From Escherichia coli (GTDB lineage Bacteria > Pseudomonadota > Gammaproteobacteria > Enterobacterales > Enterobacteriaceae), in NCBI RefSeq assembly GCF_048403405.1, contig NZ_CP183129.1: 64,000 nt of DNA; one strand, given 5' to 3'. Numbering within the stretch: the stretch's first letter is position 1; every line of letters starts with the position of its first letter. The position numbers were made by a program, and so were the translations under genes. Below, piece after piece: positions 20,275 to 20,940 of the stretch. The notes beneath the pieces are model-generated. The model had not been told where the DNA came from. It worked only from the letters and a program-made list of their open reading frames with translations, and did no database searches.

Positions 20275-20940
20275 CGCCTATAAGGCTCTCTTACCAGCCG
20301 CGCCCTAACAGGCGCACACGATCTGACATTTGCATCCAACTTCGTTACTTACGGCCCGTAAACGAGCTGCCCGGATAGGGAATCGATAACTGCTCTCCCA
20401 TTTTATCCTCTTCAAGCTGGTGCTTTATGTAATCCTGTATCTTCGCCGTGTTCTTACCCACTGTATCGACGTAGTACCCTCTGCACCAGAACTCCCTGTT
20501 CCTGTATTTGAATTTCAAATCACCAAACTGCTCGTAAAGCATCAGACTGCTTTTCCCTTTCAGATATCCCATAAACCCGGATACGCTCATTTTAGGCGGG
20601 ATCTCCACAAGCATATGGATATGATCTGCACAGCATTCAGCTTCCAGAATCCGTACGCTTTTCCACTCACACAGCTTTCTCAAAATACTGCCTATTGCTC
20701 TACGCTTCTCTCTGTAGAACACCTGTCTTCGGTATTTTGGCGCAAAAACTATGTGATATTTACAGTTCCATCGGGTGTGCGCTAAGCTCTTTTCGTTCCC
20801 CATTGGGACCCCCTTTTGATTTCTTGTTTGACACTTGCAGTTGCCAGACCGCAAGGTGTTTTAACAAATCAAAAGGGGTTTTAATAACTGGCTCAAAGCT
20901 GAAAGCTTTCCGGAACCCCCAGCCTAGCTGGGGGTTTTCT
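20275..20940 (-). mobile_element. IS200 insertion sequence (boundaries approximate)
   Basis: Single IS200-type tnpA plus hairpin CCCCAGCCTAGCTGGGG near the tnpA-proximal end; lies between the convergent lpxM and pykA terminators. Confidence 0.7.
20345..20803 (-). CDS. tnpA: IS200 transposase TnpA (HUH/Y1 family)
   Basis: 152 aa from MGNEKSLAHTRWNCKYHIVFAPKYRR; HUH motif HIHMLVEIPPK. Confidence 0.9.
   Translation of the reverse strand: MGNEKSLAHTRWNCKYHIVFAPKYRRQVFYREKRRAIGSILRKLCEWKSVRILEAECCADHIHMLVEIPPKMSVSGFMGYLKGKSSLMLYEQFGDLKFKYRNREFWCRGYYVDTVGKNTAKIQDYIKHQLEEDKMGEQLSIPYPGSSFTGRK

What the first reader, a model, noticed from the sequence alone, without database searches (positions are those of the whole stretch)
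20275..20940. IS200 copy between the convergent lpxM and pykA genes
A single 152-aa HUH transposase with an end hairpin is inserted between the two genes' terminators. IS200 is poorly mobile and carries structured 5' UTR and antisense RNAs with regulatory activity in Salmonella; the insertion is absent from the K-12 arrangement as recalled, so it may be strain-marking.
Basis: partly seen in the sequence, partly recalled or inferred. Interest (0 to 1): 0.4.

Follow-up and report, generated by a model that had tools for sequence, protein, structure and literature searches.

The report
IS200C insertion behind pykA terminator
This is an ordinary, intact copy of the known insertion sequence IS200C, placed right after the pykA terminator; only one small E. 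coli lineage carries it there, so it is a lineage marker and not a new kind of element.

Summary
The finding is real but ordinary. Window 20236-20946 (minus strand, 711 bp) is an intact IS200C. It has a 152-aa Y1/HUH transposase (Pfam PF01797, E 4e-38), the IS200 left-end terminator hairpin, the 5'UTR stem-loop that hides the ribosome-binding site (Rfam RF01405, 146 bits) and a right-end hairpin.

The hairpin taken for the lpxM terminator (20245-20263) is the IS's own right end. Empty sites have only one native hairpin, the pykA terminator.

The element sits between the 7-T tract of that terminator and the lpxM stop codon. There is no target duplication, and both genes are unchanged.

Only 9 of 5,426 complete E. 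coli genomes carry it here. They represent seven strains, and the one with published typing is phylogroup D. They are also the nine closest matches over 9 kb of flank, and ST2747 shares the window's private transposase allele. K-12 lacks the insertion. The strain-marker reading is supported.

The site is not random. All 10 E. coli/plasmid copies, and 90 of 116 copies in other taxa (controls 5 of 537), abut a terminator-like hairpin plus T-run at their left end.

The parts
20236..20946 (-). Complete IS200C element, 711 bp. The left end (LE) is at 20946 and the right end (RE) at 20236. Placement is ambiguous by +1 or +2 nt.
   Evidence: The closest genomes without the IS span 8290 bp against 9001 bp here. 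Their empty sites read CATCAAAT+A7+GCC. The block conserved in 10 independent copies is AATAAATATCC...CTGTGCACAA. Identity to seven of the nine other copies is 705-709 of 711; the other two score 701/711 and 681 over a 706-bp frameshifted copy.
20245..20263 (-). Right-end subterminal hairpin (CCTCCGGC-TAT-GCCGGAGG). It is followed by ATATTTATT to the RE tip and preceded by GAAAAA. Read on the + strand it is a terminator-like hairpin plus T5, 8 nt after the lpxM stop codon.
   Evidence: DNA folds on both strands, the terminator scan on both strands and its presence in all 10 copies.
20345..20803 (-). tnpA, a 152-aa Y1/HUH transposase (stop codon included). Catalytic residues are H61-I-H63, Y125 and Q129.
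   Evidence: PF01797 at E 3.8e-38 and NF033573 at 147.7 bits. In the alignment to IS608 TnpA (2a6m), DHIH aligns with DHIH and YIKHQ with YIENQ, which are Y127 and Q131 of IS608. It differs from the common IS200C TnpA only at residue 147, Ser in place of Pro.
20810..20878 (-). 5'UTR stem-loop of the tnpA mRNA. Its 3' arm holds the Shine-Dalgarno sequence (AAGGGGG, about 20810-20816), just upstream of the ATG at 20803.
   Evidence: RNA fold of -40.4 kcal/mol, z -3.6. Inverted repeat I2, 94% complementary. It corresponds to nt 69-138 of Salmonella IS200 (PMC4513863).
20813..20936 (-). Full-length match to Rfam RF01405 (STnc490). It covers the IS200 left-end RNA structures and lies on the tnpA-sense strand.
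   Evidence: 146.4 bits against a gathering score of 56, E 3e-31, model positions 1-124 of 124.
20914..20936 (-). Left-end perfect palindrome AACCCCCAGC-TAG-GCTGGGGGTT. In Salmonella IS200 this is the bidirectional terminator that blocks transcription entering the element.
   Evidence: Perfect 10-bp stem. There is only one copy in the window, with 0 expected by chance. The function is taken from PMC4513863 and was not tested here.
20794..20883 (+). Inferred position of the antisense RNA art200 (about 90 nt, starting opposite codons 1-3 of tnpA).
   Evidence: Coordinates were transferred from Salmonella IS200, where art200 starts at nt 153/154 and is about 90 nt long (PMC4513863). No expression data exist here, and the consensus promoter scan found nothing. 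This part is an inference only.
20947..20974 (-). Target of the insertion: the native pykA intrinsic terminator. The hairpin is AAGCCTCTC-CTCGC-GAGAGGCTT and the 7-T tract is at 20947-20953. The IS left end abuts the last T.
   Evidence: Fold and inverted repeat I9. The same hairpin and T/A run are present in the empty sites L001, L012, L013 and L003.
20235..20237 (+). lpxM stop codon TAA. It is preserved, and its last two A residues cannot be told apart from the RE tip of the IS.
   Evidence: Read directly from the sequence. The LpxM product is WP_000448381.1 both with and without the IS.

Best explanation
Window 20236-20946 is an intact copy of IS200C, an insertion sequence of the IS200 group of the IS200/IS605 family.

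Its only gene encodes a 152-aa Y1/HUH single-strand DNA transposase. By analogy with IS608 and ISDra2, the element moves by 'peel and paste'. The tnpA-sense strand is excised as a single-stranded circle and inserted, without target duplication, 3' of a short target that ends up next to the left end.

Here the target was the T-tract of the pykA intrinsic terminator. The element therefore lies co-oriented with pykA, between the terminator's 7 Ts and the lpxM stop codon.

The T-run is probably read by pairing with the A-rich bases (AGAAAA) just 5' of the left-end hairpin. The right end has the same layout: GAAAAA, then the hairpin, then ATATTTATT.

Transposase output is expected to be very low, for four reasons taken from Salmonella IS200. 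The host terminator and the IS's own left-end terminator block incoming transcription. The 5'UTR stem-loop hides the ribosome-binding site. An antisense RNA (art200) is encoded opposite the start codon. So the copy is most likely a quiescent passenger.

It entered once in an ancestor of a small E. coli lineage (one member, ST2747, is published as phylogroup D) and is inherited vertically, which makes it a lineage marker.

Both neighbouring proteins are unchanged, as are the pykA terminator and the lpxM stop codon. The only predicted local effect is that lpxM transcripts now meet the IS right-end hairpin plus T5, 8 nt after the stop codon.

Shown here: identity, boundaries, intactness, insertion site, distribution, and the target rule. 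Inferred: the transposition chemistry, guide-target pairing, RNA expression, quiescence, and any effect on lpxM termination.
For: Identity:
- Pfam PF01797, E 3.8e-38.
- NCBIfam NF033573, 147.7 bits.
- PGAP annotation as IS200C.
- 705-709 of 711 nt identical to seven of the nine other copies compared; the two most diverged are 701/711 and a frameshifted 706-bp copy.
- Rfam RF01405, 146 bits.

Catalytic residues: the HUH motif and the Y...Q motif align with those of IS608 TnpA.

Boundaries and absence of a target duplication:
- Empty sites in K-12 and in three closer relatives.
- A 711-bp length difference.
- No terminal inverted repeats, and subterminal hairpins at both ends.

Target rule:
- All 10 E. 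coli/plasmid copies have a hairpin plus T-run, or the right end of another IS200, touching the left end.
- 90 of 116 unique insertions in other genomes do so, against 5 of 537 control positions.
- Among 41 complete copies, 32 have the motif at the left-end flank and 0 at the right-end flank.
- The last two flank bases are T in 114/116 (position -2) and 103/116 (position -1) of insertions.
- The T-run/GTGCAC/AGAAAA palindrome at the junction (I5).

Lineage marker:
- 9 of 5,426 genomes.
- Those nine are the nine best flank matches.
- ST2747 carries the same private TnpA allele, WP_025210574.1.

Regulation: PMC4513863 and PMC5435999, plus the 5'UTR fold.
Against: - No experiment or transcriptome was available. 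Transposase activity, art200 and 5'UTR-sRNA expression, and termination at the new lpxM 3' end are all untested.
- Cleavage sites and guide-target pairing have not, to my knowledge, been shown biochemically for IS200 itself. They are extrapolated from IS608.
- The exact junction is ambiguous by up to 2 nt. The K-12 allele has 6 As, which would give 712 bp.
- The window's + strand has positive GC skew (+0.027). That would put the tnpA-sense strand on the leading-strand template, opposite to the lagging-template bias reported for IS608 and ISDra2. This is a single case and not decisive.
- Carrier genomes show 8-20 matching places against a median of 2. IS200C has therefore been active in this lineage at some point, so 'quiescent' is relative.
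Confidence: 0.9

Rival explanations
1. One reading: the IS spans only 20275-20940 and sits between a native lpxM terminator (hairpin 20245-20263) and the native pykA terminator.
For: On the + strand, 20245-20267 looks like a good intrinsic terminator 8 nt after the lpxM stop codon.
Against: That hairpin and the bases down to 20236 are present in all 10 IS200C copies at unrelated loci. They are absent from every empty lpxM-pykA site examined. The length difference from empty genomes is 711 bp, not 666 bp.
Confidence: 0.02
2. The copy matters to the host mainly as an RNA locus. The processed tnpA 5'UTR sRNA and/or art200 would regulate host genes in trans, as reported in Salmonella, and that would be why it is retained.
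For: The left-end RNA structures are fully conserved (146 bits; fold). In Salmonella the 5'UTR-derived sRNA represses invF and changes expression of more than 70 genes, and art200 is abundant (PMC5435999, PMC4513863).
Against: The characterised target, invF of SPI-1, is a Salmonella gene. From general knowledge, E. coli lacks SPI-1. There are no expression or target data for E. coli. The genome holds several other copies (8-20 matching places), so this copy adds only dosage. Retention over a short evolutionary span needs no selection.
Confidence: 0.1
3. The insertion has an adaptive cis effect on its neighbours, for example better termination of lpxM, or insulation of the lpxM and pykA convergent transcripts.
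For: In empty sites, the single hairpin read in the lpxM direction is followed by TTCCGCC, a poor U-tract. With the IS, lpxM meets an 8-bp GC-rich stem plus T5.
Against: Both proteins, the lpxM stop codon and the pykA hairpin plus T7 are unchanged. The site is exactly what the element's general target rule predicts, so no selection is needed to explain it. The insertion is confined to a tiny lineage.
Confidence: 0.07
4. Some carriers got the element at this site by homologous recombination of a flanking DNA segment, not by vertical descent from a single transposition.
For: Flank identity falls into two classes: 100% in six genomes and 99.7% in ST2747. E. coli recombines readily.
Against: The junctions, the orientation and the private TnpA allele are the same in the window and ST2747, so there was one insertion event either way. 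All nine carriers are the closest flank matches.
Confidence: 0.15

Closest known systems
IS200C and other E. coli/Shigella IS200 copies (ISfinder name, as used by NCBI PGAP)
   Same: The element is 711 bp. Seven of the nine copies compared, on E. coli chromosomes and on E. coli and Klebsiella plasmids, are 99.2-99.7% identical to it. The ends, hairpins and tnpA are the same. It is annotated as IS200C in RefSeq.
   Different: It carries a private Ser147 in place of Pro in the C-terminal tail of TnpA. The chromosomal site is rare, found in 9 of 5,426 genomes.
Salmonella IS200 (707-708 bp), the experimentally studied prototype
   Same: Both have a single tnpA, the left-end terminator hairpin (nt 12-34), the 5'UTR stem-loop that hides the Shine-Dalgarno sequence (nt 69-138), and an ATG near nt 144 with art200 opposite it. 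The window copy gives a full-length Rfam RF01405 match.
   Different: No Salmonella copy was aligned here, so overall identity was not measured. RNA expression and trans targets such as invF are known only for Salmonella.
IS1541 of Yersinia pestis / Y. pseudotuberculosis
   Same: It has an identical 23-nt left-end hairpin, the same right-end tip (GGAGGATATTTATT), a 710-bp length, and the same habit of sitting right after a hairpin plus T-run and of forming head-to-tail tandems.
   Different: The left-end tip differs (GTGCCCAGAA against GTGCACAGAA). Copy number is far higher in Yersinia (PMC4513863).
IS608 (Helicobacter pylori) and ISDra2, the mechanistic paradigms of the IS200/IS605 family
   Same: All have the Y1/HUH TnpA fold family (E 4e-19 to 2a6m, with HUH and Y/Q aligned), subterminal hairpins, no inverted repeats, no target duplication, a target that touches the left end, and an A-rich stretch 5' of each hairpin that could pair with the T-rich cleavage sites.
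   Different: IS200C has no tnpB. The target is a T-run next to a hairpin, not TTAC or TTGAT. Cleavage sites and guides are inferred here, not demonstrated.
Group IIC introns, an analogy in behaviour only and not a relative
   Same: They also lie immediately downstream of intrinsic-terminator motifs, an inverted repeat followed by Ts (abstract of PMC1702495).
   Different: They are an unrelated ribozyme/retroelement mechanism. No membership is implied.

Membership tests
IS200/IS605 family, IS200 group | A single ORF of about 150 aa encoding a Y1 (HUH plus one Tyr) transposase, with no tnpB | tested here: met
   152-aa ORF. PF01797 at E 3.8e-38 and NF033573 at 147.7 bits against a cutoff of 55. 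No other ORF has a family match inside the 711 bp.
IS200/IS605 family, IS200 group | Catalytic HUH motif, with the nucleophile Tyr and a Gln four residues later | tested here: met
   H61-I-H63 aligns with the DHIH of IS608 TnpA. Y125 and Q129 (YIKHQ) align with Y127 and Q131 (YIENQ) of 2a6m.
IS200/IS605 family, IS200 group | No terminal inverted repeats, and subterminal hairpins at both ends | tested here: met
   The inverted-repeat scan finds no pairing between the two ends. The left-end hairpin is at 20914-20936 and the right-end hairpin at 20245-20263.
IS200/IS605 family, IS200 group | Insertion without target-site duplication | tested here: met
   The filled site equals the empty site of the closest relatives (T+A7+GCC) plus 711 bp. 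The only shared bases are As that cannot be placed.
IS200/IS605 family, IS200 group | A specific short target lying immediately 5' of the left end on the tnpA-sense strand | tested here: met
   The left-end flank ends in TT in all 10 copies, while the right-end flank varies. In 116 other insertions the flank base at -2 is T in 114 and at -1 in 103, and the -5 base is T in 111.
IS200/IS605 family, IS200 group | Strand-specific single-strand 'peel and paste' transposition by TnpA | not testable with these tools
   This needs in vitro cleavage and strand-transfer assays, or in vivo excision assays. It is inferred from homology to IS608 and ISDra2.
IS200 proper (Salmonella/E. coli/Yersinia clade) | Left-end bidirectional terminator palindrome followed by a 5'UTR stem-loop that hides the Shine-Dalgarno sequence | tested here: met
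   RF01405 at 146.4 bits, full length. Perfect 10-bp palindrome. The 5'UTR fold pairs AAGGGGG. Function was not assayed.
IS200 proper (Salmonella/E. coli/Yersinia clade) | Expression of the antisense sRNA art200 (STnc490) opposite the tnpA start | not testable with these tools
   The region is present, but no RNA data exist. The consensus promoter scan found no site. The Rfam model matches the sense strand.
IS200C (named element) | Near-identity over the full length to copies annotated as IS200C | tested here: met
   705-709 of 711 identical to seven annotated copies, the two most diverged being 701/711 and a frameshifted 706-bp copy. PGAP product name. The ISfinder reference sequence itself was not available.

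The most novel reading that the evidence does not exclude
The IS200/IS1541 clade does more than prefer T-runs. It recognises intrinsic terminators, a GC-rich hairpin plus a T-tail on single-stranded DNA, as mimics of its own right end (hairpin plus ATATTTATT). That would be structure-guided target choice by a Y1 transposase. Each new copy would then be automatically insulated behind a host terminator and co-oriented with the upstream gene. The window copy behind the pykA terminator would be one textbook instance. A recent preprint (10.1101/2025.07.22.666184) reports the statistical excess of terminators upstream of IS200/IS605 elements. I found no paper that states the exact-junction rule, the left-end versus right-end asymmetry, or the right-end-mimicry idea. 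Older IS200 and IS1541 papers were not readable here, so they may already describe it.
Probability: 0.3. Interest if true: 0.45.

Novelty: already known. Interest (0 to 1): 0.15.

Why it matters
For the finding itself, very little. It is a correctly recognised, already annotated IS200C copy that changes no protein.

Its practical value is as a PCR- or k-mer-typable junction. The lpxM stop codon joined to the IS right end, and the IS left end joined to the pykA terminator, mark a small E. coli lineage that includes MS 69-1, ST2747, TUM14771, TUM1226, GN02461 and 4621; ST2747 is published as phylogroup D.

Two corrections matter for anyone using the locus. The apparent lpxM terminator is IS DNA. 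And the real insertion point is the end of the T-tract of the pykA terminator.

The wider by-product is that this IS clade lands precisely behind intrinsic terminators, in one orientation. That would interest the transposon field if a biochemical basis were shown. It goes beyond the single copy reported, and the general trend is already in a preprint.

Tried and rejected
1. The MAFFT pairwise alignment of filled against K-12 empty site misplaced the gap. The junction was worked out by direct reading and with closer empty sites.

2. K-12 alone suggested a 712-bp insert, because it has 6 As. The three closer relatives have 7 As, which gives 711 bp. That agrees with the RE-LE junction seen in head-to-tail tandem copies.

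3. I looked for a second copy in the window with the left-end hairpin. There is none.

4. The consensus promoter scan found no tnpA or art200 promoter. This says little, because IS200 promoters are weak and non-consensus.

5. I tried to read the older primary papers on IS200 and IS1541 flanks (PMC146608, PMC106867) and a review (PMC7190074). None is held. I therefore cannot say whether the terminator rule was described in the 1990s.

6. I mapped the window onto TUM14771. Above position 7970 it differs by only three single-base mismatches, and an indel near 7966-7970 shifts the register of the lower coordinates. So the window comes from a very close relative and not necessarily from that record.

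7. An assembly artefact was rejected. Seven independent strains with complete genomes share the junction.

8. The partial naRNA4 hit at 21042-21079 scores 38.7 bits against a threshold of 59.5. It is just the REP-like palindrome after the pykA stop codon, which is also present in the empty sites aligned.

Full report
**1. What is in the sequence**

Between the convergent genes lpxM (19266-20237, +; PF03279) and pykA (21080-22522, -; PF00224 and PF02887) lies a minus-strand ORF, 20345-20803. It encodes 152 aa from its ATG. It matches Pfam Y1_Tnp PF01797 (E 3.8e-38, residues 11-129) and the NCBIfam equivalog NF033573 'IS200/IS605 family transposase' (147.7 bits against a cutoff of 55).

Alignment to the solved IS608 transposase (2a6m, E 3.8e-19) places DHIH on DHIH and YIKHQ on YIENQ. 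The HUH histidines are therefore H61 and H63, the nucleophile Tyr is Y125 and the third metal ligand is Q129. All are intact.

Upstream of the ATG, Rfam RF01405 (STnc490, the IS200 left-end RNA) matches 20813-20936 over its full length, at 146.4 bits against a gathering score of 56. The left-end palindrome AACCCCCAGC-TAG-GCTGGGGGTT (20914-20936) is a perfect 10-bp stem. It occurs once in the window, with zero expected by chance.

The 5'UTR folds into a long stem-loop (20810-20878) whose 3' arm contains the Shine-Dalgarno sequence (-40.4 kcal/mol, z -3.6). So the core observation, an IS200 copy, is correct and far beyond chance.

**2.

A 951-bp query across the locus found only nine genomes, out of 5,426 complete E. 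coli genomes, that cover it in one piece. Nearly all the others match only about 240 bp of flank, in two pieces.

Empty sites were read directly in four strains: a K-12-type laboratory strain (L001), AR_0013 (L012), C4 (L013) and VCSW5 (L003). The three closer relatives read ...CCCATCAAAT-AAAAAAA-GCCTCTCGCGAGGAGAGGC.... K-12 has six As.

The window reads ...CCCATCAAAT-[AATAAATATCC...CTGTGCAC]-AAAAAAA-GCC.... The insert is therefore 711 bp, at 20236-20946. This matches the span difference of 9001 against 8290 bp. Shared As allow the placement to shift by +1 or +2 nt, and no target duplication is needed.

Ten independent IS200C copies, aligned with their flanks, share exactly the block AATAAATATCC...CTGTGCACAA. 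In head-to-tail tandem copies the junction reads ...GGATATTTATT|GTGCAC.... This supports GTGCAC... as the left-end tip and ...TTTATT as the right-end tip.

Two things follow. Second, the hairpin CCTCCGGCATAGCCGGAGG+TTTTT (20245-20267), evidently taken as the lpxM terminator, is the IS's own right-end hairpin.

The native intergenic region has one terminator hairpin (20952-20974). It is the pykA terminator and directly abuts the lpxM stop codon. There is also a REP-like palindrome after the pykA stop codon (21042-21079), which gives a sub-threshold naRNA4 hit.

The IS sits exactly between the 7-T tract of the pykA terminator and the lpxM stop codon. The LpxM and PykA proteins are identical with and without the IS (WP_000448381.1 and WP_000091148.1). 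The stop codon and the pykA hairpin plus T7 are also preserved.

**3. Which IS, and is it intact?**

NCBI annotates the gene as 'IS200/IS605-like element IS200C family transposase'. The 711 bp are 705-709 of 711 identical to seven of the nine copies compared, on E. coli chromosomes and on E. coli and Klebsiella plasmids; one further copy scores 701 of 711. One comparison copy, in SMS-3-5, is frameshifted. The window copy is not.

Its TnpA differs from the common allele WP_000526135.1 only by Ser in place of Pro at residue 147, beyond the catalytic domain. There are no terminal inverted repeats.

All sequence-testable family features are met (see the membership table). Transposition chemistry and RNA expression cannot be tested with these tools.

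**4. Distribution**

With a 9-kb query, the nine carriers are the nine best matches. Six are 100% identical: TUM14771, 4621, MS 69-1, TUM1226, OX030728 and GN02461. The three 'ST2747' records are 99.7% identical. Every listed genome from 99.5% downward lacks the element at this site.

The three ST2747 records are one faecal isolate plus two laboratory derivatives (PMC3983296). That leaves seven independent strains. ST2747 belongs to phylogroup D, near UMN026 (PMC4765171).

ST2747's copy encodes the same private TnpA allele, WP_025210574.1, as TUM14771's copy, which is 100% identical to the window across this locus. That argues for one ancestral insertion.

K-12 lacks the element. 'Strain-marking', or more exactly lineage-marking, is supported.

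Carriers have 8-20 places matching the query, against a median of 2 across all genomes. The lineage is therefore comparatively rich in IS200C.

**5. Why this site: a target rule**

In all ten aligned copies, the DNA touching the left end, read on the tnpA-sense strand, is a GC-rich hairpin followed by a T-run ending in TT. In two tandem cases it is instead the right end of another IS200. The DNA touching the right end is variable.

A nearby, independent example is VCSW5. It has an IS200C right after the T-tract of the mepM terminator, about 1 kb from the window's copy. The window's own sequence there (19163-19193) is the empty site.

To test generality I scanned one genome per species for the exact 23-nt left-end hairpin. 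This gave 120 loci, including Yersinia pestis IS1541, Vibrio ruber, Brenneria, Dickeya, Edwardsiella and several MAGs.

- Of 116 unique non-tandem left-end flanks, 90 contain a strict terminator-like motif ending at the IS boundary. The motif is a perfect stem of at least 5 bp with at least 3 GC pairs, a loop of 3-8 nt, and a tail that is at least 60% T.
- Only 5 of 537 control positions, taken 200-1000 nt upstream in the same loci, contain it.
- The flank base at -2 is T in 114 of 116, at -1 in 103 of 116, and at -5 in 111 of 116.
- Mean fold energy of the last 45 nt is -18.6 against -8.3 kcal/mol.
- The stem usually ends 2-6 nt before the boundary.
- Among 41 complete copies with both flanks, 32 have the motif at the left-end flank and none at the right-end flank.

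This asymmetry, with exact abutment, argues for mechanistic targeting and not merely survival of insertions in harmless places.

A plausible basis is the IS608-type guide/cleavage-site logic. The junction forms a palindrome T-run/GTGCAC/AGAAAA (I5). The A-rich bases 5' of the left-end hairpin can therefore pair with the target T-run. The right end has the equivalent GAAAAA-hairpin-ATATTTATT.

Why a hairpin is also present next to the T-run is unexplained. Mimicry of the right end, single-strand accessibility, and selection are all open.

[quoted passage not shown] The Yersinia pheL-pheA attenuator region is disrupted by IS1541 (PMC3082878). The general trend is therefore not new.

**6. How it most likely works here**

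By homology, the element moves as single-stranded DNA ('peel and paste') using TnpA. It inserted once, 3' of the pykA terminator T-tract and co-oriented with pykA.

In Salmonella, IS200 transposase output is suppressed by four things: a weak promoter, the left-end bidirectional terminator, the stem-loop that hides the Shine-Dalgarno sequence, and the antisense RNA art200. Hfq adds a further layer. Transposition is barely detectable (PMC4513863). A processed 5'UTR sRNA represses invF (PMC5435999).

All the corresponding sequence features are present here. In addition, the host pykA terminator lies immediately upstream. The copy is best seen as a quiescent passenger.

The one predicted cis change concerns lpxM transcripts. 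In empty sites they run into a hairpin followed by a poor U-tract (TTCCGCC). With the IS they meet the right-end hairpin plus T5, 8 nt after the stop codon. This is an inference and was not measured.

**7. Loose ends**

- The Rfam STnc490 model matches the tnpA-sense strand and includes the left-end terminator. The literature describes STnc490/art200 as antisense. I therefore use the hit as a marker of the IS200 left end, not as evidence for art200.
- The window's + strand has positive GC skew (+0.027). This would place the IS top strand on the leading-strand template, contrary to the bias known for IS608 and ISDra2. It is one case only.
- The window is not base-for-base TUM14771. Above position 7970 it differs by only three mismatches, and an indel near 7966-7970 shifts the register of the lower coordinates.

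**8. Verdict**

This is a true, intact and already annotated IS200C copy. Its coordinates and the 'between two terminators' description need correcting.

Novelty: already known. Interest: low (0.15). The most novel reading still open is structure-guided targeting of terminators by this IS clade. That concerns the family, not this copy, and its statistical outline is already in a preprint.

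Noticed in passing
window 31286-32937: A second, different IS200/IS605-family element lies between ptrB and yebE. It has tnpB (31286-32455, -; TnpB subfamily NF040570, 342 bits) and a divergent 141-aa tnpA (32512-32937, +; NF033573, 142 bits). In the near-identical genome TUM14771 it is annotated as ISEc46. Its presence or absence across strains was not examined.
   Followed up: partly
window 19163-19193 (empty site); L003 78-788 (filled, strain VCSW5): Strain VCSW5 carries an independent IS200C immediately after the T-tract of the mepM terminator, about 1 kb from the window's copy and in the opposite orientation. The mepM and pykA targets share the sequence CTTTTTT(T)ATTTG.
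   Followed up: yes
L014-L133, the LE flanks: Across about 116 independent insertions of the IS200/IS1541 clade, 78% abut a strict hairpin plus T-tail at the left end, against 0.9% of control positions. None of 41 complete copies has such a motif at the right end. This is a strong, oriented preference for terminators.
   Followed up: yes
L007, L009 (plasmids); L079, L080, L082, L096, L126 (Yersinia pestis): Head-to-tail tandem IS200/IS1541 copies occur, in which the right end ...GGATATTTATT is joined directly (once or twice with one extra T) to the left end GTGC(A/C)C. The right end of a resident copy therefore serves as a target.
   Followed up: partly
L014-L076: The exact 23-nt IS200 left-end hairpin occurs in MAGs assigned to Bacillota, Peptococcaceae, Saccharibacteria, Mailhella/Desulfovibrio, Oxalobacter and Elusimicrobiaceae, and many times in Vibrio ruber. 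Most hits are at contig ends. This could be wide horizontal spread or binning contamination.
   Followed up: no
window 20813-20936: Rfam RF01405 'STnc490' matches the tnpA-sense strand and includes the left-end terminator hairpin. PMC4513863 describes STnc490/art200 as the RNA antisense to the tnpA 5'UTR. The family model appears to represent the sense-strand structures.
   Followed up: partly
window 20947-20953, compared with L001, L012, L013 and L003: The A/T run shared by the lpxM stop codon and the pykA terminator varies in length among strains. It is 6 in the K-12-type strain and 7 in the closer relatives. This changes the apparent insert length from 711 to 712 bp if K-12 is used as the reference.
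   Followed up: yes
whole window; IS at 20236-20946: GC skew of the + strand is +0.027. By this measure the tnpA-sense strand of the IS lies on the leading-strand template, opposite to the lagging-template orientation bias described for IS608 and ISDra2.
   Followed up: partly
window 21042-21079: A REP-like palindrome (GCCGGATGAGGCGTTTTCGCCGCATCCGGC) lies directly after the pykA stop codon. It gives a sub-threshold naRNA4 hit (38.7 bits against 59.5). It is also present in the empty sites aligned (e.g. the K-12-type strain), so it is unrelated to the IS.
   Followed up: partly
window 6050-6248, 38689-38833 and 54322-54782: The only other Rfam hits above threshold in the window are IS009 (225 bits), the SraC/RyeA-SdsR/RyeB pair, and a cspA-type thermoregulator upstream of a csp gene. 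These are ordinary core-genome E. coli features.
   Followed up: no
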